A stretch of 64,000 nt of DNA, taken from the IMG/VR virus record IMGVR_UViG_3300042293_000555, positions 21,046-85,045 of that record; one strand, 5' to 3'. A program made the translations under genes and the position numbers. The notes beneath the pieces were generated by a model, which was not told the DNA's origin, made no database searches, and worked only from the letters and a program-made list of their open reading frames with translations. The DNA comes from a virus. Position 1 is the stretch's first letter. Every line of letters starts with the position of its first letter. Positions 1 to 17,973 of the stretch are shown here, piece by piece.

Positions 1-339
1 TTTGCAGATTCTATATCTGCACAACAACCAATAGCAGCATTTAGCTTATCAGAACTCATTGAGAGTAATGATGAAGTAAAATGCTATTCTCATTATTACA
101 ATACTAATCCTGAAATTGTACAACTTAATTTAGAGTTGTATCAGGCAAAGTATAAAAAGGAATTACAGAAAAAAGGTTACAAGATAACCAAAGATGATTT
201 TAACCTTATTCATATTCTTGTACCATTTACAAAGAATGGACATATTATGAGTTGGAAACAATTTATCAAATTTACTAACAAACACATAATAGGTGATAGT
301 CCTGAAAAGACTACATTTCACTATGATGTTTTAAATTAA
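1..339 (+). CDS. hypothetical protein, 5'-partial
   Basis: Frame 1 is open from base 1 to TAA at 337-339, so the listed 136 start is internal. Confidence 0.6.
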   Translation, partial: FADSISAQQPIAAFSLSELIESNDEVKCYSHYYNTNPEIVQLNLELYQAKYKKELQKKGYKITKDDFNLIHILVPFTKNGHIMSWKQFIKFTNKHIIGDSPEKTTFHYDVLN

Positions 340-4105: not shown

Positions 4106-6031
4106 ATGATAGACTATGTATATGACATTGAGTTATATTCAAATTTCTTTCTTTTATGTGCACAAAACACTAAGACTAAAGAGAGAATATCTTTTGAAAT
4201 ATCTCAGAGAAAAGTAGAAACTGTTAAGTTAGTGGATTGGTTATCTACTAACATCAGGTTATTTGGATTTAACTGCATAGCCTATGATGGTAAAATACTA
4301 CAAAAGTTATTAGAGCATACTTACTTAAAAGGTAAAGATTTAATAAAAGTACTGAAGAAGCATTCAGATAGACTGATATTAGATGAAACCTATGCTAAAT
4401 TTTCTCGTAAGTTTACACAAAAACCTAATGTAGACTTATTTTTACTACATCATTTTGATAATGATGCAAGAAGAACTTCTCTAAAAGATTTAGAGTTTGT
4501 ATTCAATATGCCTAATATTCAAGAGTTACCTTTTGATTATACTAAACCTGTTACTCTTGCACAAATGTCTATTCTTGTAGACTATTGTTGGAATGATATT
4601 GATGCTACTCAAATATTGTATGACAGATCTCAAGAAGCTTTATCATTAAGAGAAAGTTTATCTAATACTTATGGTGTAGATATGCTTTCTTGGAACTCAC
4701 CTAAAATAGGTGAACAAAGTTTTGCATTTAAGTTAGCAGAAAGAATTGGTCCTGCAAAATTACAGAAGAAAAGTCCTCGTAAATCTATAGCTATTGGTGA
4801 CATTATCTTCCCTTATATACAGTTTGAAACAGTAGGATTTCAAAAATTACTATCCTATTTGAAAAAAAAGGTAATCACTGATACTTACAAAGTTTTTAGT
4901 GAGTTACCATTTGAAGAACTAACAGAAATAGAAGGTCATTACAATGTATATAAAACTAAAGGTGTACAAAAGAATCTCAATATTGTACACGATGGATTTG
5001 AGTTTGTATTTGGTACAGGTGGAGTACATGGTTGTATTGATCCAGGAGTATATCTTGTAGATGATGAACACACTATTGATGATATTGATGTATCTTCTTA
5101 TTATCCTAACTTAGGTATCAAGAACAAATTATATCCTGAACATTTGGGTATAGAGTTTTGTGATGTTTATGGTGAGAGATATGAAGAACGTGGTATATAT
5201 CCTAAAGGTAGTGTTACAAATACTTCTATCAAGCTTGAACTCAATGGAGTATATGGTAAGAGTAATTCTAAATTCTCACCATTCTATGACCCCAAGTATA
5301 CTATGGCCATTACCATTAATGGACAGCTTTTACTTACAATGCTTGCTGAACAACTTATGAAAATTAGTCAGATACTTCAGATAAATACTGATGGTGTAAC
5401 TATTAGAGTTCATAAATCACAAAAGGAAAATGTAAATGCTATCATTGAATGGTGGCAAAAACTTACTCAGCTTACTTTGGAAAGTGCAAGTTATTCTAAG
5501 ATGGTTATCAAAGATGTATCTAATTACTTAGCTGTTTATACTAATAACAAGGTAAAGAGAAAGGGTGCTGCATTTAAAACTTTAACAGAACTTGAAATGC
5601 ATGAGAATTTATCTTGTGTAGTAGTTCAGGAAGCTATATCAGCATATTACATTTCCAATACACCACCAATACAATATCTTATGCAAGAGTTAGAGAATGG
5701 TTTATCTAAATTTTACTCAAAAGTAAAAATACAGAGAGATCACAAACTTGTAGCAAGGTATGAAGATGAAGATATACCACAACAAAGAGTTACAAGATAT
5801 CTTATTACAAATACAGGATGCTCTCTTATTAAAATTATGCCACCAATAAAGGTGAAAGAGAGAGAATCTGAAGTTGAAGCAGGTTGGAAGTGTACACCAT
5901 GTAATAATTTGACTACAATGAATTTAGAAGAATTAAAACAGAATCTAAACTTAGAATATTATCTCTTACAAATAAACAAAATCATAGATGGAATCTCTAA
6001 CGGCAGGAAAAAGAAAAAAGCTGCAAAGTGA
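4106..6031 (+). CDS. polB: family B DNA polymerase with 3'-5' exonuclease
   Basis: ExoI YDIE, motif A DVSSYYPN, motif B KLELNGVYGK, motif C NTDG. Confidence 0.93.
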   Translation: MIDYVYDIELYSNFFLLCAQNTKTKERISFEISQRKVETVKLVDWLSTNIRLFGFNCIAYDGKILQKLLEHTYLKGKDLIKVLKKHSDRLILDETYAKFSRKFTQKPNVDLFLLHHFDNDARRTSLKDLEFVFNMPNIQELPFDYTKPVTLAQMSILVDYCWNDIDATQILYDRSQEALSLRESLSNTYGVDMLSWNSPKIGEQSFAFKLAERIGPAKLQKKSPRKSIAIGDIIFPYIQFETVGFQKLLSYLKKKVITDTYKVFSELPFEELTEIEGHYNVYKTKGVQKNLNIVHDGFEFVFGTGGVHGCIDPGVYLVDDEHTIDDIDVSSYYPNLGIKNKLYPEHLGIEFCDVYGERYEERGIYPKGSVTNTSIKLELNGVYGKSNSKFSPFYDPKYTMAITINGQLLLTMLAEQLMKISQILQINTDGVTIRVHKSQKENVNAIIEWWQKLTQLTLESASYSKMVIKDVSNYLAVYTNNKVKRKGAAFKTLTELEMHENLSCVVVQEAISAYYISNTPPIQYLMQELENGLSKFYSKVKIQRDHKLVARYEDEDIPQQRVTRYLITNTGCSLIKIMPPIKVKERESEVEAGWKCTPCNNLTTMNLEELKQNLNLEYYLLQINKIIDGISNGRKKKKAAK

Positions 6032-7085
6032 TGCTACACTTGCAATCTTAGACAATTCCTTTACTGGAATTATTTGTATAGCACCAAGAGTAGGTAAAAG
6101 TAAGATTATATGTGATGCAATCAAACCTATGAAAACTAAAAAGTTTCTTATTACAGCACCATATAATACAATTTTAGAATCTTGGAAAAAAGAATTTGAA
6201 AAATGGAGAATGAATCCAAAAAATATTACACTTATTAATCAGAGAAGTTTAAGTAAAGAAGACTTATCTAAGTATGATGTAATAATATGTGATGAAGTAC
6301 ATACTCTTAGTGATGCACAAATGTTATTGTTAAAAGATTTTAAAGGAAGACTATTAGGTGCTTCAGGTTCTATTTCAAAAGAAACTGAAAAAACTTTAAA
6401 GTTAGAATTAGGTCTTCAGAAAATATTTGAATTTACTATAGAACAAGCTATAGAGATGGGCATTGTTGCTGATTATGAAATTATCTTAGTACCTGTTACA
6501 TTAGATGCTACTAACAAGTATATTGAAGCAGGCTCTAAAGATGCAAAGTTTCTTACTACAGAATATGCTAATTATCAGTATCATACAGCACAATTTGAGA
6601 AGTTTAAGAAAATGGCTTGGAACAATAAGAAATTTGAATTTGTAAAAATGGCAGAAGCTTCAAGAAGAGCTGAACTTATTTACAAGTCAAGAACTAAAAT
6701 TGAAAGAGTTAAAAAACTTATCAAAGACCAAGAGAGATGTCTTATATTTACTGCAAGAACAGAAGTTGCTGATGAGTTTGCTACAGGTTATCACTCTAAA
6801 GTAAATCCCAACATTCTTACTCAGTTTATGGATGGAGAACTCAATAAACTTGCTGTATGTGAGATGACTAATATGGGTGTAACTTTTCCTAATCTTAAGA
6901 CAGGTATATTTCATCAGATGAGAAGTGGAGAAGAATCTGCTATTCAAAAGGTAATGAGAATGTGTAATGTTGAAGAAGATGAAAAAGCTACTATTTATAT
7001 AGTGTATTATGCAAATACTGTAGATGAAGAATGGACTAAGAAAGCTCTTATTGGTTTAAATCCTGATAAAATTAAGATAATCTAA
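5988..7085 (+). CDS. superfamily 2 (DExH) helicase
   Basis: APRVGKS Walker A, DEVH, motif III ASGS, motif VI-like QKVMR. Confidence 0.85.
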   Translation: MESLTAGKRKKLQSDATLAILDNSFTGIICIAPRVGKSKIICDAIKPMKTKKFLITAPYNTILESWKKEFEKWRMNPKNITLINQRSLSKEDLSKYDVIICDEVHTLSDAQMLLLKDFKGRLLGASGSISKETEKTLKLELGLQKIFEFTIEQAIEMGIVADYEIILVPVTLDATNKYIEAGSKDAKFLTTEYANYQYHTAQFEKFKKMAWNNKKFEFVKMAEASRRAELIYKSRTKIERVKKLIKDQERCLIFTARTEVADEFATGYHSKVNPNILTQFMDGELNKLAVCEMTNMGVTFPNLKTGIFHQMRSGEESAIQKVMRMCNVEEDEKATIYIVYYANTVDEEWTKKALIGLNPDKIKII

Positions 7086-7136
7086 CTTAATGACAGATGA
7101 AAATCGTTGTATTAGGGCATAATTAAGTTAGTAAAT

Positions 7137-7254
7137 TTCGGTGTAATTCAAATGGTTAAGAATAGGTGGTGCGGGAAATGTATTGATACCCAATCTATCA
7201 GACACAACTAATACAAGTAAAGTGTAAATACAGGTTCGAGTCCTGTCACCGAAA
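7137..7254 (+). ncRNA. tRNA-like RNA with 65-nt insert replacing the anticodon and variable arms
   Basis: Acceptor TTCGGTG/CACCGAA, D arm ATTC-AAATGGTTAA-GAAT, canonical T arm ACAGG-TTCGAGT-CCTGT. Confidence 0.65.
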
Positions 7255-7256
7255 CT

Positions 7257-7427
7257 ATAAACAACTAATGATTAACACTAATAAATACACGAGTGCTTTT
7301 AGTCAGTTGTATCTCACAGTTCTCAAATGTTAGTGATTAGGTTAATGTATCTGTCGGCAGACATGGAGTGTATGGGTTTGGGCATACATAGATACCCTAT
7401 TGAGAAGGCATTAGTTGTTTATTTTTT
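7257..7427 (+). ncRNA. candidate structured ncRNA (~165 nt)
   Basis: Perfect 14-bp closing stem 7257-7270/7409-7422 with nested helices; ends in a T-tract. Confidence 0.55.
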
Positions 7428-7449
7428 AACATTTTAAAACAATAATATT

Positions 7450-7674
7450 ATGGAAAAGATACCAACAGCAGAAGAATTTATAAAAGAAGCTCAGTCTAAT
7501 CCAAGTAAAGGATGGACTGCACGTAAACTAATGATTGAATTTGCTAAACTTCATGTAGAAGCTGCATTAAAAGCTGCTGCTGAGAATGTACAAACAAATT
7601 ATTTCTATACTGAAGATGATCCTATAGATAAAGACTCAATCCTCAATTCTTATCCACCAAATTTAATCAAGTAA
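7450..7674 (+). CDS. hypothetical protein
   Basis: EFAKLHVEAALKAA pattern recalled from Bacteroidota phage small ORFs. Confidence 0.7.
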   Translation: MEKIPTAEEFIKEAQSNPSKGWTARKLMIEFAKLHVEAALKAAAENVQTNYFYTEDDPIDKDSILNSYPPNLIK

Positions 7675-7675
7675 T

Positions 7676-7909
7676 ATGAAATACTTATTTATCCTAATAT
7701 TATTAGTATTTACAAGCTGTGTAGATCAACAAGAGAGATTTAATAATCTCAAGAAAATGTATCCTAATTGTAAAGTAGAACCTTCTACAGGATTACTACA
7801 ACAAGGTGGATATGACTTTTTAGTTATTGATAGTAATGAGCAAATGATTGCTGTCAAATTTCGTGAGCTTAGTACTACAAAGATTTCTTCACTTAGAAAT
7901 GTAAGATAA
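7676..7909 (+). CDS. small lipoprotein
   Basis: MKYLFILILLVFTS-C signal peptide with lipobox-like Cys. Confidence 0.7.
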   Translation: MKYLFILILLVFTSCVDQQERFNNLKKMYPNCKVEPSTGLLQQGGYDFLVIDSNEQMIAVKFRELSTTKISSLRNVR

Positions 7910-8017
7910 TATGATGAAGGATATAAACGTGGTCAAATAGATTGTCAAAATGATTCATTACTTTGGAAAAAGATTATGAATAATGATGGTGAGATTATAT
8001 TTCAAAAGATTAAATAA
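7910..8017 (+). pseudogene. start-less 35-codon gene remnant in frame after the lipoprotein stop
   Basis: Reads YDEGYKRGQIDCQNDSLLWKKIMNNDGEIIFQKIK* directly after TAA. Confidence 0.35.
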
Positions 8018-8035
8018 CCCTTAAATACTGTAAAG

Positions 8036-8575
8036 ATGACAATTAACCAAGAGTTAGTTAAGTTTCTGCATAACTCAAATGTAGAGTGTGATTTAGCATT
8101 ATTATACTTACTGTCCTTATATCATGGACTTACTACTGATGACCTTATACCTGAAGCTACTGTTAGAGCAGTAAATACTATAGGGATTGTTGAGAGAGAT
8201 TACAAAACTAATACTCTCAATTGGCATATAGCATTATATGATGGACAAAGTACAGATGGTGTATGGGAATGGGTAAATGAGTTTAGAAAACTCTTTGCTT
8301 CTAAGAACAAAGAAAGAGAAGGTAACAAGAAAGCTTGTGTTCAGAGAATGAAAATGTTCTTTACTCAAAATCCTGACATTAGAAAACAGGATGTATTGGA
8401 AGCAACAATGATGTATCTTAGGTCAACAGATCCTAAATATGTCAAGATGGCAGAGAGATTTATCTTTGATGGACAAGGTAATTATAAAACTTCTCTACTT
8501 ACTGATTGGGTAGATAGATTAAGAGAAATCAGAATGAAACAAATTGTTGACCCAACTACTAAAATTATGAAGTAA
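8036..8575 (+). CDS. replication-associated protein (possible initiator or helicase loader)
   Basis: Translationally coupled to the DnaB gene; function inferred from position only. Confidence 0.55.
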   Translation: MTINQELVKFLHNSNVECDLALLYLLSLYHGLTTDDLIPEATVRAVNTIGIVERDYKTNTLNWHIALYDGQSTDGVWEWVNEFRKLFASKNKEREGNKKACVQRMKMFFTQNPDIRKQDVLEATMMYLRSTDPKYVKMAERFIFDGQGNYKTSLLTDWVDRLREIRMKQIVDPTTKIMK

Positions 8576-9669
8576 TGAATTTTATTGAAGCTCTTAAATT
8601 AGGACAAGAAGGACAGAATAAAGGATTACCTACAGGATTAGCACCATTAGATAGAGCTTGTGATGGAATACAAAAGAAAGCTATTTATGGTGTAGCAGCA
8701 GGTCCAAAGGTTGGTAAAAGTACTTTAGTAGATTTTGCTTTTGTAATACACCCAATATTACATTGTTTGGAACATAACATACCACTAACTGTAATTTATT
8801 TTTCTTATGAAATTGATAGAGTGAAAAAGGAATTTGACTTTGCTTCTTTTTTCTTTTTTAAAGATTATGGTATCTCTGAAATTACACATAATGGAGAAAC
8901 TTATCTTTTATCAAGCAGATACTTACTTGGTAAGTTACAAGATAGAGAAGGAGAAGTCATTCCATTAACTGAAGAACATAAAACTATACTTGAAGATATT
9001 TATACCAATAGGATTATTCCATTATTTGGAGAATATAATTCTAAAGGTATAAAGTTAAAAGAAGGTGTAATTCAGTTTATGGAAGACAGAGATAATCCTA
9101 CAGGTATGAGAAATACTATTCTTGAATATGCAAGAAAGAATGGTGAGTTTACTTTTCAAGAGTATGAAGCTACTGAAGATGGTAAAAAGGTAAAGAAAAA
9201 TAGACTTTTAGGTTATGTCCATAAGGATAAACAAAAGAGAACTATTATCATTACTGACCACATCAGAAAACTTAAGAGAGAAAGAGGTTATTCAATGAAA
9301 GAGAATATGGATAAATGGATAGAATACAGTGTAGAACTGAGAAATTTCTGTCATTATACATTTGTCCACATTGTTCACTTGAATAGATCTATCTCTAACA
9401 TAGAAAGACTTAAGTTTAATGGAGAATATATCTATCCTACAGGTGAGGATGTTAAGGACTCAGGTAACTTGAGTGAAGAGTGTGATTATCTTTTTACACT
9501 TTTTAATCCTACTGATGAAAAATATGGGTTAACCACACACTTTGGACATCAGTTGCATGAGTATCCAAATTACAGGTCTATTCACTTAGTAGAATCACGA
9601 GATACAGAATGTCCACAACATCTTGCAGTACAGATGTATGGTAATATCAAACATTTTAAAACTTTATAA
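8575..9669 (+). CDS. dnaB: DnaB-like (SF4) replicative helicase
   Basis: PTG...D N-terminus, AAGPKVGKST Walker A, ITDH, HLNR, DVKDSGNLSEECD. Confidence 0.88.
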   Translation: MNFIEALKLGQEGQNKGLPTGLAPLDRACDGIQKKAIYGVAAGPKVGKSTLVDFAFVIHPILHCLEHNIPLTVIYFSYEIDRVKKEFDFASFFFFKDYGISEITHNGETYLLSSRYLLGKLQDREGEVIPLTEEHKTILEDIYTNRIIPLFGEYNSKGIKLKEGVIQFMEDRDNPTGMRNTILEYARKNGEFTFQEYEATEDGKKVKKNRLLGYVHKDKQKRTIIITDHIRKLKRERGYSMKENMDKWIEYSVELRNFCHYTFVHIVHLNRSISNIERLKFNGEYIYPTGEDVKDSGNLSEECDYLFTLFNPTDEKYGLTTHFGHQLHEYPNYRSIHLVESRDTECPQHLAVQMYGNIKHFKTL

Positions 9670-9683
9670 ACAATTAGAAAGCA

Positions 9684-10391
9684 ATGGCAAAAATTATGAT
9701 TATTTCAGAAAGCGGCTTTGGTAAATCTACCTCTATTTGTCCAAGTGAAGAACTTGGTATTAAGGGTTTAGATCACACCACCACTTTTATTGTAAATGTT
9801 AATAACAAAGACTTACCTGCAAGAGGTTGGAAAAAGTTATATAAACACATTCAAGGTAAAGATCTTAGTACCGGTAATTATGTAGAAACTAATGTAGGTT
9901 TAGACATAGCAGGTCTTATTGGTATTTTGAATGAGAAAAAACCTGAAATCACTACTCTTGTTATTGATGATTTTCAATACATTATGTCAGATTACTACAT
10001 GGAGAAAGCTAAAACAAGTGGCTTTGATAAATTTCAGGATATAGGTTACTTTATAGGTAAAATATTCTCTGCCATTCAAAAGTTTAAAGGTCATGTTATC
10101 ATTCTTACACACCCTGAAGAAGTACAAGGCACTTATGGTACTACCTATAAAGCTAAAACAGCAGGTAAGATGGTAGATCAGTACATTACTATGGAAGGTA
10201 AGTTTGATATAGTACTCTATGGTGCTCAGGAGTTTGACAACAAAACTAAGAAAGCATTAAAACAATTTGTTACTAATTTTGATGGTAGATATCCTGCTAA
10301 AAGTCCTGTAGGAATGTTTCCACTTACAATACCAAATGATTTAGGACTTGTTATTGACCTTGTAAACAAATACTACGATGGAGAAGAATAA
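9684..10391 (+). CDS. AAA-family ATPase (Sak4/AAA_24-like)
   Basis: SESGFGKSTS Walker A, VIDD Walker B, AKSP motif. Confidence 0.82.
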   Translation: MAKIMIISESGFGKSTSICPSEELGIKGLDHTTTFIVNVNNKDLPARGWKKLYKHIQGKDLSTGNYVETNVGLDIAGLIGILNEKKPEITTLVIDDFQYIMSDYYMEKAKTSGFDKFQDIGYFIGKIFSAIQKFKGHVIILTHPEEVQGTYGTTYKAKTAGKMVDQYITMEGKFDIVLYGAQEFDNKTKKALKQFVTNFDGRYPAKSPVGMFPLTIPNDLGLVIDLVNKYYDGEE

Positions 10392-10522
10392 TATTTTTAA
10401 AACTATAAGAAAAGGTGTTAAAGTTTACACCTGTTCCCCAGTTACTGATGGAACAATTAAAACTTCTAAAAGATAATTTGTATTTTTATAACCCAATTTT
10501 TAAATTTTAAACATTTCAAACC

Positions 10523-10816
10523 ATGTCACAAATCAAAGTTTCCGAGATTTTAAATGATCTTACCAATGGTCTTACAAGAGAAGACATCAAAAAGAAGTAC
10601 AACATGTCAACTGCTCAATTGAAAGCAGTATTTGCTCATCCTAAGTTGAAAGGTAGAAAGACTAAGAAAGCTGAAGAGCCTATTAATCTTATTGATGACC
10701 TTGATACTGCTGAAATTGCAACACCTACAGTTGCAGTAACTGTAACTACAATTGAAGAACCAGTTGAAGAAGTAGAAAGTATTACACCTGCAACTCTTGA
10801 TGATCAGTTTGTATAA
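10523..10816 (+). CDS. hypothetical protein (HTH-like N-terminus, acidic tail)
   Basis: GLTREDIKKKYNMS..QLKAVF; followed by a terminator. Confidence 0.65.
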   Translation: MSQIKVSEILNDLTNGLTREDIKKKYNMSTAQLKAVFAHPKLKGRKTKKAEEPINLIDDLDTAEIATPTVAVTVTTIEEPVEEVESITPATLDDQFV

Positions 10817-10828
10817 GGTAAAGTTAAT

Positions 10829-10853
10829 GGAGAGGAAGTAATTCCTCTCCTTT
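10829..10853 (+). terminator. intrinsic terminator
   Basis: GGAGAGGAA-GTAA-TTCCTCTCC plus Ts. Confidence 0.7.
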
Positions 10854-10887
10854 GTTATTCATTCATTCACTAAATTATATATTAAAA

Positions 10888-11667
10888 ATGAGTTACGGGT
10901 ATAACAATGATGAAAAAGCATCTTCAAGTTTGAATTTTGGTCTAAATCAAAAAGCAGTAATGACCAAATTTGAATTTAACCCCAATGGTGGTAAAGAAGG
11001 TGCAGCACAGGAATGTCTTGATATTATCTTTGAGTTTCCTAATGGAACTACAAAGAATTACAGACAATTTCCAATTACAAAAGCTAAATCTAAAGATGGT
11101 AATGACATCACAGACCCAAGAGCTAAGGAAATGATTGCAGCATTCAATGAGTTTAACTCAAAGATTACTCAGATTATGAAATGTTTTGTAACAGAAGAAG
11201 AAGTTAAACAAGGTTTAAGTACTGTATCTAATTTCAAATCTTTTTGTCAAGCATTGACTAATCTTCTTCCTTCTAATTGGAAAGAAATGTCTATTGATAT
11301 TTTCTGTCAATATCAGTGGCAACCAAAAGGAGATTATGATGCTAAATTTGTAGAAATAGCATCTAATGTCAAACAGGGTAAAGTATTTACAGCAGGTGTT
11401 GAAGGTTATTTTGATGCTGTTACTATAGATACTGAAACTAAAATTGCTACTTACAAAGGACAAGAATATCCTATTGTAGTAGAATTTAAGAAAGCTTCAT
11501 TTACTATCAATGAAAGAGCTTATTCAGTTGCTGAACAAACAGGTTTAATTTATATCGAAGATGAAAGTGGAGATCTCCATCCAATTTCAAGAACTGCATG
11601 GTTCATGAAAAGTAATTGGGCAAAGGCAGTAAATGGTGATACACCTATTCAATCATCTTGGGAATAA
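10888..11667 (+). CDS. putative ssDNA-binding/recombination accessory protein
   Basis: Start MSYGY at 10888; lies between the AAA ATPase and primase; function inferred. Confidence 0.5.
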   Translation: MSYGYNNDEKASSSLNFGLNQKAVMTKFEFNPNGGKEGAAQECLDIIFEFPNGTTKNYRQFPITKAKSKDGNDITDPRAKEMIAAFNEFNSKITQIMKCFVTEEEVKQGLSTVSNFKSFCQALTNLLPSNWKEMSIDIFCQYQWQPKGDYDAKFVEIASNVKQGKVFTAGVEGYFDAVTIDTETKIATYKGQEYPIVVEFKKASFTINERAYSVAEQTGLIYIEDESGDLHPISRTAWFMKSNWAKAVNGDTPIQSSWE

Positions 11668-11676
11668 ATTAAAACT

Positions 11677-12648
11677 ATGTACGGCTATCATACAGATATA
11701 ACTAATACTAACATTGATGAGTTCTTTAATAGAATAAATCAAGAAGAAGTCTTCAAACACTTGTTTGGAGATTTTGAAATTGGTACTTATATTACATCTC
11801 CTTTTAGAGATGATGGTAGTCCTGGATGTTGGATACAATGGAGTGGTAAAAAACTATATTTTACTGATTTTGCTTCAAATTGTGGCAGAGTTAATTTAGA
11901 TGCTTTAGGTATAATTCAAAAGAAATATAATCTATCTGTTCGGAAAGCGATGGACTTTATATTATCTTTTGACTTTACTAAAGAACCTGAATATCCTAAG
12001 TTTTCTCCCACTTCTATTGTATCTTCATCTAATAATTCTATTTTAGAATTTTGTCCAAAACCATTTGATGAGTATCATAAACTGTATTGGTCACAGTATG
12101 AGATAACTTCTACTCAACTTATCTTAGATAACATATTTGCTACTAAATGGTATAAGGTAAACAATCACACATTTAACCCTTATCCTGTAGAAACTACTTA
12201 CACTATTAGTTATTCTACCAGCATAAAAATATGTAGACCAAAGGCTACATCTCACAAATGGACAACAAATGCTACCAAAGATGTAATAGGTGGCACAAGA
12301 TCTCTTCCATTCTTAGGTAAAAATCTTATAATTACCAAGTCGTACAAAGATTGGAGAGTACTTACAAATTTAGGATTTCATACAATGTATTTTCAAAATG
12401 AAGGTATGTTTCCTACAATGGAAAATCTTTACATTTACTTAGAAGCATTTGACAATGTATACATCTTATTTGATAATGATGCAGCAGGTGTTAATGCTTC
12501 TTCTAAATTAAAAACTTACATAAATGATTCATTTACAGGTAAAGTAGAATCACTACTATTACCTACAAAATCTAAAGACCCTGCTGATGCAATAAAAGCA
12601 GGTGAAAAACAAAAATTAATTTCATTTCTAAATCCGTTATTACAATGA
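11677..12648 (+). CDS. DnaG-like (TOPRIM) primase
   Basis: SPFR.D..P N-terminal domain, TKSYKD, FDNDAAG, KDPAD motifs. Confidence 0.85.
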   Translation: MYGYHTDITNTNIDEFFNRINQEEVFKHLFGDFEIGTYITSPFRDDGSPGCWIQWSGKKLYFTDFASNCGRVNLDALGIIQKKYNLSVRKAMDFILSFDFTKEPEYPKFSPTSIVSSSNNSILEFCPKPFDEYHKLYWSQYEITSTQLILDNIFATKWYKVNNHTFNPYPVETTYTISYSTSIKICRPKATSHKWTTNATKDVIGGTRSLPFLGKNLIITKSYKDWRVLTNLGFHTMYFQNEGMFPTMENLYIYLEAFDNVYILFDNDAAGVNASSKLKTYINDSFTGKVESLLLPTKSKDPADAIKAGEKQKLISFLNPLLQ

Positions 12649-13352
12649 GAAAAGTTAAAGTTTATTCAACAGTATCAGGTTTAAGACAATTTGATTCATC
12701 AGCAACTATTTGGGGAGAACTCAAATACGAGTTACAAAATGAAGGTTATTCATTTTCTAATATGACAGTTACTGAAAACAAAAGAAACAGTACCTTAATG
12801 TTAGATGAAGCAGAATTACCTGAAGAAGATTTTGTACTAATGCTTACACCACAGAAAACTAAAAGTGGTGCAATGAGTTATGGTGAAATCAGAGCACAGA
12901 TTAAAGAAGCTTTTATGTCTTATGGAACAGCTGCTGCTACACACTTTAATGAAGGAAAGAACTATACCAATAAATCTAAAGATGAGTTAGAATTTCTTTT
13001 AAATTCTTGGTTAAAGAAAATACCTACAAGTAAACAAGTTGTACTACCTAAAGCAGAAGTATCTCCTGCACCTATTAAGGTAGATACCAGTTATACAGAA
13101 GACTTAGAAGATGATGAAGATGACTACGAAGATAATGAAGAAGATGAAGATTCTGATGAAGTAGCAGAAGTTATTGAAGCTATTTCTAACCTTAACTGGA
13201 ATGGAAGATATGATGACTTTAACCTTGCTATTGCTCTAATTAGAGGTGAGAAATCTGCTAAGAATCTAACTTCATATAATGTAGCATCTGTAAAAATTAC
13301 TACATCTGAAGAAGATGCTTGGATTGCTAAGATGAGAAATAAAGGGTTATAA
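12645..13352 (+). CDS. ubiquitin-like (beta-grasp) protein precursor with C-terminal extension
   Basis: Residues 1-75 follow a beta-beta-alpha-beta-beta pattern ending LTPQKTKSG; followed by a helical segment and acidic tract; first gene before E2/JAB/E1. Confidence 0.65.
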   Translation: MRKVKVYSTVSGLRQFDSSATIWGELKYELQNEGYSFSNMTVTENKRNSTLMLDEAELPEEDFVLMLTPQKTKSGAMSYGEIRAQIKEAFMSYGTAAATHFNEGKNYTNKSKDELEFLLNSWLKKIPTSKQVVLPKAEVSPAPIKVDTSYTEDLEDDEDDYEDNEEDEDSDEVAEVIEAISNLNWNGRYDDFNLAIALIRGEKSAKNLTSYNVASVKITTSEEDAWIAKMRNKGL

Positions 13353-13372
13353 ATTGTTGCTTGCTCATTTTT

Positions 13373-13409
13373 AGAAGACTGTTATGTAATGTAGCAGTCT
13401 TCTTTTTTT
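13373..13409 (+). terminator. intrinsic terminator/attenuator between Ubl and E2-like genes
   Basis: AGAAGACTGTTAT-GTAA-TGTAGCAGTCTTCT plus T-tract. Confidence 0.75.
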
Positions 13410-13429
13410 ATTTAACTAATTCTAAAATT

Positions 13430-14689
13430 ATGATAAACGTAGGACATCTAATTCTTAGAGCATTTAAACAAAGAACTTTAGATAACATTTCAAAATTTTA
13501 TAAACCTGTAGAAAATATTATAACTGAAAGATTTAGAAAAGTAAATTTAACACCTATTTTTCCTTTCTATAATCAAGTAAAACAAGGTTTAGATGCTTGG
13601 GGTGGTGAATATGAGTTGACTTTAAATTATGAAATAAAGTCAATAGCTATAAATGATGTAAATACTTTTCTTCATTATTGTCACAATAAGAAAAAGCATC
13701 ATTTCAGTTATCCTTTGTATGACATTGTAAATTCAATTAACCTTAATGGTACTTTTACTAATAGTTTTATATTCTATAATCCAATACTACAAATTACATT
13801 ACATTATCCTGAAGTAAAAATTGAAAATGAGAATAAGGAATTTCTAAATTTAAGAAATTTCTTTGTCAGATTTAATATTAGTCTTGATGGTAATGTTAGT
13901 GAGTTAACAGGTAATAAAACTACCTATACAACTGCTGAATATGATAAAAGATATATTCATTCTCATTTACATACTCTTAGTACAAATTATAAATTAAAAT
14001 TTGATAATTTTTGTTTGGGTACAGGACAACCTATATCTTTTGCTAAGATAATGCTTGAAGAAGTAATTAAATCTAAACAAGGTATTAATGATGCTATAAA
14101 CTATTATTGTCAAAATATAAATGTAGTAGTTAATACTGAAAGTCTTGCTGGAACACCTTATATCAGATTAAGTGGAGTATCAAATAATTATGTAGATTTT
14201 AATTCAAGTGATGTAAGTGTTTTATGTAGTTCTGTGTTTGATTATCTTAGTAAAATGGATTTAAGTAAAATTAAATCTGATCTTTTTAAAATTGGTGCAG
14301 TAAGAGTAGTTAATAAAGATGTCAAACTTACTGATAAAGCAGATGTAGTATTGTTTATAGATCCTGTTTTATATGATTTTGATAAAGTAAAGTCTATACT
14401 TAATATTTCAAAATTTATATCTGTTAAATACAATGGTGTAGATGTTAAACTGTACGAAGTTTCATCTGCAACATCTATTGTTGAACCTATTTTTATAAGG
14501 TTTAATGGTAAAAAGTTTTATTTTACAATAGATAATCCAGCTATTTATTCACCTGAAAAGTTACAAATAACTTTTTCACAACCATTTAAAAAATATGTTA
14601 GACAATTTATCAAAACTCTCTACTTATCAGCAGCAATTGTTGAACGAGAAACCATTAAAGAAAGTACAATTGCCTTTCCTGAACCTTAA
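13430..14689 (+). CDS. E2/UBC-like ubiquitin-conjugating domain protein
   Basis: YIHSH-(x15)-CLG, resembling the E2 HPN/HPH...C signature; Cys codon at 14012-14014; neighbours JAB and E1. Confidence 0.6.
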   Translation: MINVGHLILRAFKQRTLDNISKFYKPVENIITERFRKVNLTPIFPFYNQVKQGLDAWGGEYELTLNYEIKSIAINDVNTFLHYCHNKKKHHFSYPLYDIVNSINLNGTFTNSFIFYNPILQITLHYPEVKIENENKEFLNLRNFFVRFNISLDGNVSELTGNKTTYTTAEYDKRYIHSHLHTLSTNYKLKFDNFCLGTGQPISFAKIMLEEVIKSKQGINDAINYYCQNINVVVNTESLAGTPYIRLSGVSNNYVDFNSSDVSVLCSSVFDYLSKMDLSKIKSDLFKIGAVRVVNKDVKLTDKADVVLFIDPVLYDFDKVKSILNISKFISVKYNGVDVKLYEVSSATSIVEPIFIRFNGKKFYFTIDNPAIYSPEKLQITFSQPFKKYVRQFIKTLYLSAAIVERETIKESTIAFPEP

Positions 14690-15743
14690 TGGACAACCAA
14701 AAGTTATTTTATCTAATCTTTTATGGGAAAAAATGCAGTTTTTGTGTAACCATATTAGTACTGTAGAGTGGAGTGGATGTATATTTTATGAAATTCATGG
14801 TGCATTAGATAAACCTGAAGAGTTACAAATCTTTGTACATGATATGATTCCTTTAGATAAAGGTACAACAGGATTTACAGAGTATAATTTTGATGGAAGA
14901 GTTATTGCATATATGACTGAAATGGAATATTTTGAATACAGGATAGGACATTTACATTCTCATCACAGTATGAAAACATTTTTCTCAGGCACTGATTTGG
15001 AAGAAGTAAATGAAAACTCTGAACACATTAAACCTTATCTCAGTATTATCATCAATAATGCTTATGATTTTTCTTGTAAGTTAGCATTCAGGTTAAAAGT
15101 ACTTAATCCTACTATCTATGAATATCAGGAGATTGATAATGTACCTAAACAACTTGTGATACAACAATCTGATGAGTATGTTGCTAATTATGATTGTTTA
15201 GTAATCACACCAAAGAAAGAATTTAGTGTAAATCCTTCTTTCTTAGCTCAGTTTAATGAGATAATGAAACCAAAACCATCTAAATTTCCTACTTATATAG
15301 CTAATACTAAACCTATTGGGTTTAAAAGTGATCAACTTGAATTTGAATTTGATGATTTCTTTGGTTCACTTGATTCTCCAACATCAGATAGGAAAGGTAT
15401 TGATGAAGTGTCTGATAGTGGAATTACATTAGCAGAGTTTGAGAAATTCTATTGTTATTTACTTAGGTTAGGGTTAGATGTACCAGGAGATACTATGGAA
15501 AAAGTATTGGAAGATTTAGATGAATCAGCAAGAGCTGAAGATTTTAATTTAGAACAGTTTGCATATAATCTAAAGAAAGATTTTCCTAAGAATTTTAAGA
15601 AGTTTTGGAATGTAAAAATATTAACTAAAAGAGAAGAAGCAAGTGAGTGGGAAGAATTTACTGATGAACTTATGTTTGCATCAGATGAATTTCCAATCTT
15701 AGATTCTCTTTTGGAACTCTTAATGTCACCAAATCATGAGTAG
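14595..15743 (+). CDS. JAB/MPN+ (JAMM) metallo-isopeptidase
   Basis: VEWSG glutamate and exact H-x-H-x7-S-x2-D motif (HSHHSMKTFFSGTD). Confidence 0.88.
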   Translation: MLDNLSKLSTYQQQLLNEKPLKKVQLPFLNLNGQPKVILSNLLWEKMQFLCNHISTVEWSGCIFYEIHGALDKPEELQIFVHDMIPLDKGTTGFTEYNFDGRVIAYMTEMEYFEYRIGHLHSHHSMKTFFSGTDLEEVNENSEHIKPYLSIIINNAYDFSCKLAFRLKVLNPTIYEYQEIDNVPKQLVIQQSDEYVANYDCLVITPKKEFSVNPSFLAQFNEIMKPKPSKFPTYIANTKPIGFKSDQLEFEFDDFFGSLDSPTSDRKGIDEVSDSGITLAEFEKFYCYLLRLGLDVPGDTMEKVLEDLDESARAEDFNLEQFAYNLKKDFPKNFKKFWNVKILTKREEASEWEEFTDELMFASDEFPILDSLLELLMSPNHE

Positions 15744-16470
15744 AGAAAGATATCAAGATGCATTATGGTATAATAAACCTGTAAGAATATTAATTTTTGG
15801 AGCAGGTGGAATTGGCTCTTGGAGTTCATTCTTTCTAACAAGAGCAGGTTTTGATGTTAGAATTTTTGACTTTGATAGAGTTGAAGAACATAATCTTGGT
15901 GGACAAATGTTTCTACATCAAGATATTGGAAAGTTAAAAATTGATGCTGTAAATAATGTTGCCAGGTTATTTAACAATGATGATTATATGTTTAGGGGAA
16001 TGAACTTTAAAGTAGGTTCTAATTTCTCTTTTAATGATAGAGGTGGATTCTATGAATACAATCCAAGAATAGCCACTATTGTCATCAGTGCTTTTGATAA
16101 TATGGAAGCAAGAAAAAATCTATTTACAGCATTTACAGCAGCAAATAATACTACACCAATGTGGTTTATTGATGGTAGATTATTGATGGAGCAAATGAGA
16201 ATTTACTGTATCAACAAATCTCATCAAAAATCTATCATAGATTACATTGATGCTCACTTGTTTGATGATTCTGAAGTTGAAGAATTACCTTGTACAATGA
16301 AACAGGTTGGACATGGTGCAGCTATGATTGCTACTCACATTACAGGATTTGTTACTAACATTGTTTCCAATGAATTTGTATGGAGAGAAGAAGTGTTTCA
16401 AGTACCTTATATGTGGGATTACATTATTCCAACTAATTCTGTCACTCAAAAATTAGCAAGTGAATTATGA
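15736..16470 (+). CDS. ThiF/E1-family ubiquitin-like activating enzyme
   Basis: GAGGIGS, DFDRVEEHNLGGQ, AFDNMEAR, candidate catalytic Cys in ELPCT. Confidence 0.9.
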   Translation: MSRERYQDALWYNKPVRILIFGAGGIGSWSSFFLTRAGFDVRIFDFDRVEEHNLGGQMFLHQDIGKLKIDAVNNVARLFNNDDYMFRGMNFKVGSNFSFNDRGGFYEYNPRIATIVISAFDNMEARKNLFTAFTAANNTTPMWFIDGRLLMEQMRIYCINKSHQKSIIDYIDAHLFDDSEVEELPCTMKQVGHGAAMIATHITGFVTNIVSNEFVWREEVFQVPYMWDYIIPTNSVTQKLASEL

Positions 16471-16949
16471 TAGCAGATTTGCATCCTATCTTTAAAACAG
16501 ATACTAATTATCCAAGATTAAAAGGTAGAAATTCACATTCTACAACAATGTATTCTCTTCATTTTGCAAAGTTTAATTTTCATAGTAAGACATCACTGGT
16601 ATTTGTAAATAAACCTATAGCAAATTTGACTAACTTAAATGAACACTTTACAAACAATAATTACTTTTATTATTTTAGTAAAAGTAACATAATAGTTTCT
16701 AAAGGATTAATCTTGGATAGTAATACATTAGAAGTACTTGTATTTGTACACATTAAACAAAGATATAGATGTTTTGGAGAAAACTGGTCAGCAATAACAT
16801 ATTACAGAAATTCAAGTCTTGTAATATATGTTGCAACAGAGTTAAATGTTAAAGTTGTTGAAAAATTACTACCTTTAAGTCAATTTATAAAAATAATTTT
16901 CTTACCAAAAGAAGACTTACAAAGGTTAGTATATGAAGAACACGAATAG
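16467..16949 (+). CDS. hypothetical protein coupled to the E1 gene
   Basis: ATGA overlap with the E1 stop codon. Confidence 0.6.
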   Translation: MIADLHPIFKTDTNYPRLKGRNSHSTTMYSLHFAKFNFHSKTSLVFVNKPIANLTNLNEHFTNNNYFYYFSKSNIIVSKGLILDSNTLEVLVFVHIKQRYRCFGENWSAITYYRNSSLVIYVATELNVKVVEKLLPLSQFIKIIFLPKEDLQRLVYEEHE

Positions 16950-17018: not shown

Positions 17019-17606
17019 ATGGCAAAAACTCCTAAAAACATTAAAGTTAAAACATTTATTTATGTTTTGGCTGACCCTGACACTCTTGAAATAAAATATG
17101 TTGGTAAAACTGTTAAACCATTAAAAATTAGATTAACAGGTCATATTTATTCTTGTAAAAAAGAAAAAAATCATAGGACAAATTGGATAAAATCTATTCT
17201 TAAAAAAGGTAAAAAACCTATAATAAAAATGATAGATTATTGTACATGGGATGAAAGTCAAAAATTAGAATATGATTGGATTATTAAATTCAAGGACAAA
17301 GGATATGACCTTGTTAATTTAACAAATGGTGGTGAAGGCAATTTAGGATTAAAACTTAGTAAAGAACGAAGAGATAATCTTATAATAGCTGTTTCTAAAA
17401 AAATTTATCAATATACTTTAAATGGAGTATTTATAAAAGAATTTAAAAATGCAGTAGATGCTGCTAAAGAATTAAATTTAAAACACTCTTCTAAAATTAA
17501 TGCTGCTGCAAGAGGGGTTAGAGGTAAAGCTGCAAACTTTTTATGGTCTTATGAAAAACTTAATTTTTTAAAAAAATATAAAAATAGATATGATAAAAAC
17601 AGGTAA
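17019..17606 (+). mobile_element. free-standing GIY-YIG homing endonuclease with NUMOD1-like C-terminus
   Basis: FIYVL..KYVGKT..RLTGH, LE..WI, NLTNGGEG, IYQYTLNG.FIKEF..A..AA. Confidence 0.85.
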
Positions 17607-17973
17607 TACAAACAGAACTAAAGGAAACAATGCTGAACGTCATTATGCCTCTAAATTAAAAGAAGTATTTCCTGATTGTCTTACAAGTAGATATGCATCT
17701 AAAGCATTAGATGATGCAGGGGTTGATTTAGCAAATATTCCAATACTTGTACAGATTAAAGCAGGAATACAAAAAGGAATGAAACCTGATGAAATCTTAA
17801 AGAATATTGAAAACAAGATTCCTAAGATGATGAGTGATTTTCCTAAAGTACTTATACATCATAAGCAGGGTAAACCAGGCAAGAAAAGAGATGAGTATTC
17901 TTCATTGGTAACTATGACTTTTGATGATTTTTTCACAATTATTAAATTAGCTTATGATAATCAGAACAAGTAA
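17590..17973 (+). CDS. Holliday junction resolvase (Hjc-like PD-(D/E)XK)
   Basis: KGNNAER, DDAGVDL, VQIK motifs. Confidence 0.72.
   Translation: MIKTGNTNRTKGNNAERHYASKLKEVFPDCLTSRYASKALDDAGVDLANIPILVQIKAGIQKGMKPDEILKNIENKIPKMMSDFPKVLIHHKQGKPGKKRDEYSSLVTMTFDDFFTIIKLAYDNQNK

What the first reader, a model, noticed from the sequence alone, without database searches (positions are those of the whole stretch)
12645..16949. Apparently complete phage-encoded ubiquitin-like conjugation operon (Ubl precursor, E2-like, JAB, E1)
Seen in sequence: four consecutive genes directly after the primase. They are a protein whose first 75 aa end in KTKSG (Gly codon 12867-12869), a protein with HSH-x15-CLG (Cys 14012-14014), an exact JAMM motif (E...HxHx7Sx2D), and a ThiF/E1 enzyme with GAGGIG, D.D.VE..NL..Q and a candidate catalytic Cys; a coupled 160-aa ORF follows. 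Established: Ubl, E1, E2 and JAB are the parts list of bacterial protein-conjugation systems (PRTRC cassettes, Bil/Bub, CBASS Cap2/Cap3), normally described on the host side. No sulfur-transfer or cofactor genes are present in this window, so a ThiS/MoaD role is unlikely. Inference: the phage ubiquitin-tags host or phage proteins during replication, or counters host Ubl-based defence. Caveat: I recall ThiF and MPN annotations in crAss-like genomes, so the new part would be the Ubl and E2 that complete the pathway; these two are also the weakest calls.
Basis: partly seen in the sequence, partly recalled or inferred. Interest (0 to 1): 0.92.

Follow-up and report, generated by a model that had tools for sequence, protein, structure and literature searches.

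The report
Phage-encoded ubiquitin-like tagging gene set
A freshwater crAss-like phage carries, right after its DNA primase gene, its own ubiquitin-like protein (made with a removable tail), a probable carrier enzyme, a trimming protease and an activating enzyme. Such a kit has so far been studied only in cells and in bacterial anti-phage defence, and actual tagging by the phage kit is not yet shown.

Summary
The Ubl call is strong. Residues 1-75 of ORF 12645 model as a beta-grasp that overlays whole ubiquitin end to end (Z 7.0-7.8), and Gly75 is kept in all homologs. Two lineages have stand-alone 75- and 82-aa forms ending 1-2 residues after that Gly.

E1 (Pfam ThiF 3.9e-15; conserved Cys186) and JAB (E58, H121xH123, S131, D134) are solid. 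The E2 call rests on fold only. About 47 of the 50 best structural matches are UBC/UEV/RWD chains, but at Z 5-6.4. His177, His179 and Cys195 are invariant in 63 diverse homologs, and no sequence profile links it to a known E2 family.

The order primase-Ubl-E2like-JAB-E1 holds in all 37 loci examined, including relatives of crAss001, DAC15 and Flavobacterium phage Fpv1.

New here:
- A terminator-like hairpin follows the Ubl gene in nearly all loci.
- One complete phage carries two divergent full cassettes.
- The plasmid PRTRC cassette is the closest collinear relative.

This scan has noted the same cassette before on other DNA (135 notes, at least 105 genomes). I found no paper describing it. 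The target and the conjugation itself are untested.

The parts
11677..12648 (+). DnaG-type primase (context). Its stop overlaps the start of the Ubl gene (ATGA).
   Evidence: PHROG 12622 DNA primase 1.2e-44 and Toprim Pfam hits. It lies directly upstream of the Ubl gene in every related locus.
12645..12869 (+). Ubiquitin-like beta-grasp domain (aa 1-75) ending in the invariant tail P69-x-K-T72-K73-S74-G75.
   Evidence: AF2 model has pLDDT 84-90 over aa 1-70 with bbabb topology. Foldseek against PDB gives SUMO1, ubiquitin and ISG15 at probability 1.0 and TM about 0.6. VIA-align gives Z 7.0-7.8, and model 1..75 overlays ubiquitin 0..76. Gly75 is invariant in 31 homologs and is kept in all 32 distinct locus homologs. 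Stand-alone forms end G-K* (L020) and G-A-I* (L035).
12870..13352 (+). C-terminal extension of the Ubl precursor (aa 76-235): helical region with an HFNxGKNYTNKS motif, a disordered D/E-rich tract and a helical tail. It is the presumed leaving group after cleavage.
   Evidence: The motif is conserved (N106, T108 invariant). Length varies from 1 to about 190 aa between lineages. No Pfam family matches. pLDDT is below 50 for aa 128-166.
13373..13413 (+). Terminator-like hairpin (14-bp stem, 13373-13403) plus a T-run, between the Ubl gene and the E2-like gene.
   Evidence: Found by the scan. The same position holds a strong hairpin plus T-run in about 28 of 30 distinct related loci, with unrelated stem sequences. 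Mean dG is -17.5 against -7.9 kcal/mol for random windows, and 25 of 30 loci beat at least 39 of 40 random windows.
13430..14689 (+). E2-like protein (419 aa): UBC/RWD-like core (about aa 45-250) with invariant N133, Y175, H177, S178, H179, C195, G197, E237, S238, G241, P243, Y244, followed by a C-terminal domain (aa 260-419).
   Evidence: The family has 1125 representative clusters. Invariant residues come from 63 diverse members. The AF2 model has pLDDT 80 overall and 94-98 in the core. VIA-wide returns about 47 of 50 rows as E2, UEV or RWD chains, including UBE2E1 at Z 6.1 and BubB at Z 5.1. The ATG at 13430 is preferred as the start because the upstream TTG at 13361 would run through the hairpin.
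14595..15743 (+). JAB/JAMM (MPN+) metalloprotease (N-terminal about 160 aa) with a 220-aa C-terminal extension. It is the presumed Ubl-precursor processing enzyme or deconjugase.
   Evidence: The motif E58...H121xH123x7S131x2D134 is at least 90% conserved in 30 homologs. Sequence hits are weak: Prok-JAB 0.0049, PRTRC_A 0.067, CSN5 0.87. In Fpv1 the gene is split at the HxH motif by a group I intron.
15736..16470 (+). E1-like adenylyltransferase (244 aa, single ThiF/MoeB/UBA5-type domain) with conserved Cys186.
   Evidence: Pfam ThiF 3.9e-15, 56.1 bits against a cut-off of 28.1. UBA5 is the best solved relative at 5.8e-11. R5, G22xGG25, D45, D47, N53, Q57, K68, D121, R126, D146 and C186 are conserved, and C186 is also kept in PRTRC ThiF proteins.
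16467..16949 (+). Translationally coupled 160-aa ORF of unknown function. It may be a fifth component.
   Evidence: A gene follows E1 in every locus. The window's family (8 loci) and the crAss001/DAC15/Fpv1 family (11 loci) are only weakly related (hhalign E 9.7e-4 over 60 columns). No family or atlas hit was found.

Best explanation
The genes form a phage-owned ubiquitin-like conjugation pathway built into the DNA-replication operon.

Proposed steps:
1. The Ubl is made as a precursor (beta-grasp 1-75 plus a 160-aa tail) at the end of the primase transcription unit.
2. A hairpin terminator after it lowers read-through into the enzyme genes, so the Ubl is in excess.
3. The JAB protease cuts after Gly75.
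4. The small, probably homodimeric, E1 adenylates Gly75 with ATP and takes the Ubl onto Cys186 as a thioester.
5. The Ubl passes to Cys195 of the E2-like protein. Its C-terminal domain, with no separate E3, selects the target lysine. JAB may also reverse the mark.

Shown here:
- the folds of the Ubl and the E2-like core;
- the catalytic motifs and their conservation;
- strict gene linkage;
- duplication of the four genes en bloc;
- the conserved hairpin.

Inferred: cleavage, the thioesters, transfer, and the target. My guess for the target is a replisome or host protein engaged during phage replication.
For: - Ubl: beta-grasp model, ubiquitin/SUMO matches, invariant tail Gly, and stand-alone 75- and 82-aa forms ending 1-2 residues after the Gly.
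- E1: ThiF above the Pfam cut-off, UBA5 as nearest solved structure, ATP-binding residues and Cys186 conserved.
- JAB: complete JAMM motif conserved. A group I intron sits in the HxH codons in Fpv1, as expected for an indispensable site.
- E2-like: the structural hit list is almost purely the UBC/UEV/RWD fold. H177, H179 and C195 are invariant in 63 diverse members of a family with 1125 clusters. By the model's secondary structure they lie between the last sheet strand and the long helix.
- Linkage: the order primase-Ubl-E2like-JAB-E1 holds in all 37 loci as far as the DNA reaches.
- Duplication: one complete 94-kb phage has two full cassettes 28-37% identical, each keeping every catalytic residue.
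- No sulfur-relay or cofactor genes occur in the complete genome.
- The collinear plasmid PRTRC cassette carries Pfam-recognised Prok_Ub, Prok-E2_D, Prok-JAB and ThiF.
Against: - No biochemical evidence exists, and no RNA data were available.
- The E2 matches are at Z 5-6.4. By the tool's own note this is within the range seen for models with no true match.
- Foldseek found nothing in PDB for the E2-like model, and profile comparison with Prok-E2_D was not significant.
- I could not overlay Cys195 on an E2 catalytic Cys, because no coordinates or residue-level alignments are returned.
- HxH...C...E could instead be a metal site.
- The E1 family has Gly where ThiF, MoeB, UBA5 and PRTRC ThiF have the Arg of the NxxRQ motif (the role of that Arg is from my own knowledge). 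Its chemistry may therefore differ.
- The Ubl ends in a single Gly (S-G), not GG.
- The target is unknown.
Confidence: 0.6

Rival explanations
1. Sulfur-carrier or biosynthetic system. The Ubl is a ThiS/MoaD-type carrier that the E1 activates to a thiocarboxylate after JAB trimming, as in CysO/Mec+ or QbsE/QbsD. The sulfur goes to a nucleic-acid or small-molecule modification, and the 419-aa protein is the acceptor enzyme rather than an E2.
For: The best NCBIfam hits of the E1 are ThiS adenylyltransferases (9e-16). MoaD also overlays the Ubl model at Z 7.2. JAB-trimmed sulfur carriers are known (Iyer et al. 2006, PMC1779556).
Against: No rhodanese, cysteine desulfurase, ThiG or MoaE is present in the complete genome. 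None of the 37 loci shows a recognisable sulfur-using enzyme next to the cassette. The partner protein has a UBC-like fold. The cassette sits in a replication operon. Host sulfur donors cannot be excluded.
Confidence: 0.12
2. Conjugation without an E2, in the manner of archaeal sampylation or Thermus TtuB. E1, Ubl and JAB suffice. The 419-aa protein is a non-catalytic UEV/RWD-type adaptor or a metal-binding scaffold that only recruits targets.
For: Many of the best structural matches are non-catalytic RWD or UEV domains, such as Spc24/25, Ltn1 RWD and Tsg101. No sequence link to catalytic E2 families was found. HxH...C...E resembles a zinc site.
Against: An invariant Cys flanked by invariant His residues, in the loop where E2s carry HPN...C, is not expected of a mere adaptor. 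Both paralogous cassettes in G001 keep it.
Confidence: 0.15
3. Counter-defence device. The phage Ubl system or its JAB neutralises host Ubl-based immunity (Bil, type II CBASS, Bub), or tags host defence proteins for inactivation.
For: Host Ubl pathways are anti-phage systems that JAB peptidases regulate (PMC11601596).
Against: The cassette is a fixed, translationally coupled core of the replication module in phages of very different hosts and habitats: Bacteroides, Flavobacterium, lake water, human gut. Anti-defence genes are usually variable accessory genes. This last point is inference from general knowledge.
Confidence: 0.1

Closest known systems
PRTRC (ParB-related, ThiF-related cassette) of plasmids and ICEs: PRTRC_C (Pfam Prok_Ub), PRTRC_D, PRTRC_B (Prok-E2_D), PRTRC_A (DUF2016 + Prok-JAB), PRTRC ThiF
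   Same: - The best plasmid matches of the phage E1 include PRTRC ThiF proteins, alongside unnamed HesA/MoeB/ThiF proteins.
- The gene order is the same: Ubl, a large protein, (E2), JAB, E1.
- The Ubl tails are alike...TKG and ...NG in PRTRC_C against ...TKSG in the phage. One PRTRC_C (L040) carries a 70-aa extension after the Gly.
- The E1 is small and single-domain, with the same conserved Cys.
- Both lie among the replication or partition genes of a mobile element; in L040 the flanks are ParB, the Pol III beta subunit and SSB.
- PRTRC is also uncharacterised: 45 papers mention it, and in the 15 listed by title and abstract it is not the subject.
   Different: - There is no ParB, PRTRC_E or PRTRC_D equivalent.
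- The phage scores are far below the NCBIfam cut-offs: PRTRC_ThiF 44.2 against 144.75, and PRTRC_A 12.8 against 101.8.
- The phage Ubl and E2-like protein do not match Prok_Ub or Prok-E2_D (hhalign).
- The phage E2-like protein is 400 aa with an HSH...C signature, not HxPxxN...C.
- The phage JAB has a long C-terminal rather than an N-terminal extra domain.
- The phage E1 has NxxGQ instead of NxGRQ.
Bil (BilA-BilB-BilC-BilD) bacterial anti-phage ubiquitination operons (as summarised in PMC11601596)
   Same: It has the same four-part list in separate genes: Ubl, E2, JAB peptidase, E1. It has no E3, and the E2 is proposed to pick the target. Its chemistry is cysteine-based.
   Different: [quoted passage not shown] The phage E1 is one 244-aa domain. 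Bil is a host defence system, whereas this cassette is a core phage replication-module gene set. PADLOC models gave only generic partial hits.
Type I Bub (6E.1): BubAB, BubCD, BubE (Ye et al. 2024, PMC11601596)
   Same: The Ubl is made as a precursor whose C-terminal part must be removed by a JAB peptidase to expose the Gly. The E1 is small and homodimeric, of the UBA5 type. BubB appears among the structural matches of the phage E2-like model (9eav_D, Z 5.1).
   Different: In Bub the tail is the E2 itself and JAB is fused to E1. Bub uses Tyr and Ser oxyesters and lacks catalytic cysteines, and it has a DUF6527 serine protease. The phage has separate genes, a conserved Cys in both E1 and the E2-like protein, and no DUF6527 hit.
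Lambda/T1 tail assembly proteins I (Ubl) and K (JAB + NlpC/P60) (Iyer, Burroughs and Aravind 2006, PMC1779556)
   Same: This is the only earlier phage case of a Ubl with a conserved C-terminal Gly, followed by a linker and a small C-terminal domain, and paired with a JAB peptidase predicted to cut at that Gly.
   Different: It has no E1 and no E2, so no activation or conjugation step. It works in tail assembly, not replication, and has no detectable sequence relation.

Membership tests
Ubiquitin-like beta-grasp modifiers | Beta-grasp (bbabb) fold | tested here: met
   AF2 model aa 1-70 has pLDDT 84-90. Foldseek gives probability 1.0 to SUMO1, Ub and ISG15. VIA gives Z 7.0-7.8 at rmsd 1.8-3.0 over 66-72 residues.
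Ubiquitin-like beta-grasp modifiers | Conserved Gly at the end of the flexible tail after the last strand | tested here: met
   G75 is invariant and kept in all locus homologs. Model 1..75 aligns with ubiquitin 0..76.
Ubiquitin-like beta-grasp modifiers | The Gly is exposed as a free C-terminus, directly or by processing | tested here: inconclusive
   The window protein has 160 residues after G75. L020 and L035 have 1 and 2 residues after it. Cleavage itself is not testable here.
E1-like adenylyltransferases (ThiF/MoeB/UBA5, PF00899) | Match to the family model above the curated cut-off | tested here: met
   56.1 bits against 28.1; 55.6 bits in the genome scan.
E1-like adenylyltransferases (ThiF/MoeB/UBA5, PF00899) | Nucleotide-binding GxGxxG, acidic Mg/ATP residues, conserved Lys and DN..R | tested here: met
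   G22xGG25, D45, D47, N53, Q57, K68, D121 and R126 are conserved. One exception: Gly replaces the Arg of NxxRQ.
E1-like adenylyltransferases (ThiF/MoeB/UBA5, PF00899) | Catalytic Cys in the crossover loop | tested here: inconclusive
   Cys186 is invariant and shared with PRTRC ThiF. Its structural position was not modelled.
JAB/JAMM (MPN+) metalloproteases | E...HxHx7Sx2D zinc and catalytic motif | tested here: met
   E58, H121, H123, S131 and D134 are each at least 90% conserved.
JAB/JAMM (MPN+) metalloproteases | Match to Pfam Prok-JAB above the cut-off | tested here: not met
   17.2 bits against 25. The protein is a divergent member recognised by its motif.
E2 / UBC-fold conjugating enzymes | UBC-like alpha/beta fold | tested here: inconclusive
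   About 47 of 50 VIA-wide rows are E2, UEV or RWD chains, with 105-134 residues aligned for the E2 chains, but Z is only 5.0-6.4. Foldseek against PDB found nothing.
E2 / UBC-fold conjugating enzymes | Catalytic Cys after an HPN-like motif, between strand 4 and helix 2 | tested here: inconclusive
   Invariant H177-S-H179-x15-C195 lies between strand 160-167 and helix 201-215 of the model. No residue-level superposition was available.
E2 / UBC-fold conjugating enzymes | Sequence-profile match to UQ_con or Prok-E2_A-E | tested here: not met
   No Pfam hit in 63 members. hhalign against Prok-E2_D (PRTRC_B) gave E 0.08-0.33.
PRTRC cassette | ParB-family gene and PRTRC_A-E proteins above the NCBIfam cut-offs | tested here: not met
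   A primase, not ParB, is upstream. PRTRC_ThiF scores 44.2 against 144.75 and PRTRC_A 12.8 against 101.8. There are no hits for B, C, D or E.
Bil (BilABCD) | [quoted passage not shown] | tested here: not met
   The E1 is a single 244-aa ThiF domain. The definition is taken from PMC11601596.
Type I Bub | Ubl-E2 and JAB-E1 fusions, a DUF6527 protease, and Tyr/Ser instead of Cys | tested here: not met
   The genes are separate, Cys186 and Cys195 are conserved, and there is no DUF6527 hit.

The most novel reading that the evidence does not exclude
Crassvirales-type phages run their own ubiquitin-like protein-tagging pathway as a core part of DNA replication. Parts: Ubl precursor, JAB maturation, a minimal E1, and a new E2 family with an HSH...C active site and a built-in substrate-binding domain. 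It would be the first complete E1-E2-Ubl system owned by a virus of bacteria, and evolutionarily tied to the uncharacterised PRTRC cassettes of plasmids. Some phages would run two orthogonal pathways side by side. This would mean that Ubl conjugation is a general device of mobile-element replication, not only of cells and their immunity.
Probability: 0.45. Interest if true: 0.85.

Novelty: new variant of a known kind. Interest (0 to 1): 0.72.

Why it matters
Bacterial Ubl conjugation has only recently been shown (type II CBASS, Bil, Bub), and always as host defence. Here the same logic sits on the virus side, as a fixed core of the replication module. The phage lineage includes cultured gut phages (crAss001, DAC15) and fish-pathogen phages (Fpv1-4), so it can be tested at the bench.

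Confirmation would assign a function to four or five of the many 'hypothetical' core genes of crAss-like phages and define a new E2 family. It would also give a handle on the equally uncharacterised PRTRC cassettes of plasmids. The open question it raises is what a phage needs to tag in order to replicate.

Tried and rejected
- Pfam, NCBIfam, PHROGs and PADLOC gave no informative hit for the Ubl or the E2-like protein. There was only an unnamed PHROG for the Ubl.
- Profile searches of PDB sequences with both families found nothing relevant.
- Foldseek against PDB with the E2-like model gave no match at E <= 0.001. BFVD returned only uncharacterised crAss-like proteins.
- hhalign of the E2-like family against PRTRC_B (Prok-E2_D) was not significant. 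With 3 sequences, and with 23 after a homolog search that returned only close relatives, E was 0.08-0.33. The first run did align SHL...FCLG onto H.P..N...LC.G.
- hhalign against PRTRC_D was not significant.
- ESM Atlas gave no usable hit for the E2-like protein or for the fifth ORF.
- The search for related loci with the 63-sequence alignment failed because it had no conserved stretch. A 10-sequence alignment worked.
- Expression: no RNA holder was listed among the public runs.
- Literature: no paper in the library holds crAss-like + ThiF or crAss001 + thiamine biosynthesis. None of the 15 papers listed for crAssphage + ubiquitin (17 hold both terms) concerns this cassette, judged by title and abstract. 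Yutin et al. 2018 is not held, so earlier mention outside the library cannot be excluded.
- I considered a programmed frameshift joining the E2-like and JAB genes, which overlap by up to 95 nt under the longest-ORF rule. I dropped the idea. The shift would be +1, several loci have no overlap (L021, L026), and the overlaps depend on my longest-ORF start rule.

Full report
**Setting.** The window is bases 21046-85045 of a complete 85,045-bp IMG/VR virus record with direct terminal repeats. It has about 30% G+C. DNA of the region recurs in lake and freshwater metagenomes from more than ten studies between 2016 and 2024. By DNA the only relatives in GenBank phages are the Flavobacterium psychrophilum phages Fpv1-4 and FPSV (Fipvunavirus). 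The match is a 115-bp stretch of the ThiF gene. By protein, the genes also occur in Crassvirales of the family Steigviridae: crAss001, the PhiCrAssBcn phages, DAC15 and DAC17, Kolpuevirus, and cr85_1, cr112_1, cr126_1 and cr128_1.

**Observation.**
- Ubl precursor: 12645-13352, with Gly75 at 12867-12869.
- E2-like protein: 13430-14689, with H177-S-H179 and Cys195 at 14012-14014.
- JAB: 14595-15743, with E58, H121xH123, S131 and D134.
- E1: 15736-16470, with GAGGIG at 22-27, D45xD47, N53, Q57 and Cys186.
- A 160-aa ORF: 16467-16949.

The primase/Ubl and E1/ORF5 junctions are ATGA overlaps, and JAB/E1 overlap by 8 nt.

**The Ubl.**
- A word-index search found 79 homologs. P69, T72, K73, S74 and G75 are invariant among 31 aligned sequences that share as little as 26% identity, and a length-variable linker follows the Gly.
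- The AlphaFold model built on that alignment gives a confident bbabb beta-grasp for residues 1-70 (pLDDT 84-90). The TKSG tail is free after the last strand, then come helices and a disordered acidic tract.
- Foldseek against the PDB returns SUMO-1, ubiquitin, ISG15 and a Bacteroides fragilis ubiquitin-like protein at probability 1.0 and target TM about 0.6.
- VIA-align gives Z 7.0-7.8 at 1.8-3.0 A over 66-72 residues. In end-to-end alignments, model residues 1..75 match ubiquitin 0..76, so Gly75 falls where ubiquitin has Gly76.
- In 36 related loci the Gly is always present (K[TI]KSG, VKSG, HKGG, IRNG, TKAG and others).
- Two lineages encode the beta-grasp alone: 75 aa ending KVKSGK* in L020, and 82 aa ending KHKGAI* in L035.

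The domain boundary is therefore at the Gly, and the long tail of the window's protein is dispensable for the Ubl itself. The tail varies from 1 to about 190 residues. It carries an HFNxGKNYTNKS motif in many lineages and matches no Pfam family.

**E1 and JAB.**
- The E1 passes the Pfam ThiF cut-off (56.1 against 28.1 bits). Its nearest solved relative is UBA5 (5.8e-11), followed by PaaA and MccB.
- In 22 phage and 3 PRTRC sequences aligned together, the invariant positions are G22, G24, S28, D45, D47, N53, Q57, K68, D121, R126, D146, C186 and P224.
- Cys186 (PCTMKQ) lies downstream of the adenylation core. From memory of ThiF and MoeB sequences, that is where those enzymes have their crossover-loop Cys. 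This equivalence is inferred, not modelled.
- All phage sequences have Gly where PRTRC ThiF has the Arg of NxGRQ.
- The JAB protein hits Prok-JAB only weakly (0.0049). It carries the full JAMM motif, and each residue is at least 90% conserved in 30 homologs.
- In Fpv1 the JAB gene is interrupted exactly at the HxH codons. The insert matches the Rfam group I intron model (43.4 bits, E 2e-9, just under the gathering score of 50) and carries a LAGLIDADG ORF on the other strand. Such elements typically sit in indispensable catalytic sites.

**The E2-like protein.**
- An exhaustive HMMER search found 1125 representative clusters, with the common core at residues about 120-255.
- In 63 diverse members (17-29% identity, apart from one 91% relative) N133, Y175, H177, H179, C195, G197, E237, S238, G241, P243 and F358 are invariant. 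None of the 63 matches a Pfam E2 family.
- The model (pLDDT 80 overall, 94-98 in the core) has a helix, a long antiparallel sheet, and a loop carrying HSH and Cys195, followed by two long helices.
- Foldseek finds nothing in the PDB.
- The Foldseek-independent VIA-wide search returns a list that is almost entirely the UBC/UEV/RWD superfold. It includes 28 catalytic E2s (UBE2E1 Z 6.1, UBE2J2 5.9, Ubc8 5.8, UBE2F 5.7), Tsg101, RWD domains, and BubB of the bacterial Bub pathway (Z 5.1).
- The Z scores are in the range that the tool warns can be a common arrangement. I therefore treat the fold as likely and the catalytic equivalence as plausible but unproven.
- Profile comparison with PRTRC_B (Prok-E2_D) is not significant.

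**Linkage.** Using jackhmmer over the ORFs of 37 loci, I found the order primase, Ubl, E2-like, JAB, E1 in every locus as far as its DNA reaches. The loci were the window, Fpv1, DAC15, cr112_1 and 33 IMG/VR contigs. The one apparent exception, L035, has a divergent 82-aa Ubl. In GenBank the JAB and E1 of crAss001-like phages are annotated 'contains metalloprotease domain' and 'thiamine biosynthesis protein ThiF'. The Ubl and E2-like genes are 'hypothetical'. In BFVD the E2-like relatives are all 'uncharacterized'.

**Three further points.**
1. *A conserved hairpin after the Ubl gene.* A 14-bp hairpin with a T-run lies between the Ubl and E2-like genes (13373-13403). The same position holds a strong hairpin plus T-run in about 28 of 30 distinct loci, with unrelated stem sequences. 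Mean dG is -17.5 against -7.9 kcal/mol for random windows of the same loci, and 25 of 30 beat at least 39 of 40 random windows. The Ubl is therefore the last gene of the replisome transcription unit, and the enzymes lie behind a conserved terminator or attenuator. This fits a substrate made in excess of its enzymes.
2. *A phage with two cassettes.* One complete 94,456-bp phage (G001) carries two tandem full cassettes. The paralogs are 28-37% identical, and each keeps the tail Gly, HSH...C, the JAMM motif and the E1 Cys. Each also has its own hairpin. Duplication of the four genes as one block argues that they work as a cognate set.
3. *PRTRC as the nearest collinear relative.* The phage E1's best matches in plasmids include PRTRC ThiF proteins. 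PRTRC cassettes have the collinear order Prok_Ub, a large unknown protein, Prok-E2_D, DUF2016-JAB, ThiF. Their Ubl tails end TKG or NG, and one has a 70-aa extension. They lie among plasmid replication and partition genes. The phage proteins fail all PRTRC cut-offs, so this is a relative in design and not a member.

**Mechanism and rivals.** The most economical reading is a cysteine-based Ubl conjugation pathway with JAB maturation, acting during replication, with the target unknown (confidence 0.6).
- A sulfur-carrier role is less likely. The complete genome has no rhodanese, ThiG, MoaE or cysteine desulfurase, and no such gene neighbours the cassette in any locus. Host enzymes could still serve.
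- E2-independent conjugation, with the 419-aa protein as an adaptor or metal-binding scaffold, remains open.
- A counter-defence role fits poorly with a fixed core position across hosts and habitats.

**Known or new.** Ubl/E1/E2/JAB operons of bacteria are well known, predicted by Iyer et al. 2006 and shown for CBASS, Bil and Bub. The only phage precedent I found is the lambda/T1 tail-assembly Ubl-JAB pair, which has no E1 or E2. No paper in the searchable library describes this cassette. This scan has noted it many times on other genomes (135 notes in at least 105 genomes), with follow-up verdicts that agree with mine. I class it as a new variant of a known kind.

Noticed in passing
window 13373-13413, and the same position in L001-L036: A terminator-like hairpin plus T-run directly after the Ubl gene is conserved in position but not in sequence across about 28 of 30 distinct related loci. 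It suggests the Ubl ends the replisome transcription unit and the enzymes are expressed by read-through or separately.
   Followed up: yes
L043 (G001:C1:37500-52500, reverse strand), rc coordinates 2669-12442: A complete 94-kb relative carries two tandem full cassettes (Ubl, E2-like, JAB, E1, plus one more ORF each). The paralogs are 28-37% identical and all catalytic residues are kept in both.
   Followed up: yes
L001 4654-6946 (Flavobacterium phage Fpv1): The JAB gene is split at its HxH codons by a group I intron (Rfam RF00028, 43.4 bits, E 2e-9, at 4971-5216). The intron carries a LAGLIDADG ORF on the opposite strand (5170-5919). GenBank annotates the pieces as three hypothetical proteins.
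   Followed up: partly
L020 4502-6632 and L035 5177-5425: These are stand-alone Ubl genes of 75 and 82 aa, ending 1-2 residues after the tail Gly. In L020 the E2-like protein is 571 aa with an acidic N-terminal extension that may correspond to the detached Ubl tail.
   Followed up: partly
window 16467-16949 and the gene after E1 in all loci: A gene always follows E1. Two families (8 and 11 loci) are weakly related (hhalign E about 1e-3 over 60-80 columns). This may be a fast-evolving fifth component.
   Followed up: partly
window 17019-17606: A GIY-YIG-type homing endonuclease ORF lies between the cassette and the resolvase-like gene (17590-17973). Another note of this scan already covers it.
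   Followed up: no
A7 alignment (E1), window aa 53-57: All phage E1s have N-x-[GSA]-G-Q where PRTRC ThiF has N-x-G-R-Q. Loss of this Arg is a family signature, and its consequence for adenylation is unknown.
   Followed up: no
L003, L004, L018, L025, L029, L032 (E1 genes): In gut Steigviridae-type loci the E1 carries an N-terminal extension of 60-230 aa that is absent from the window's 244-aa E1.
   Followed up: no
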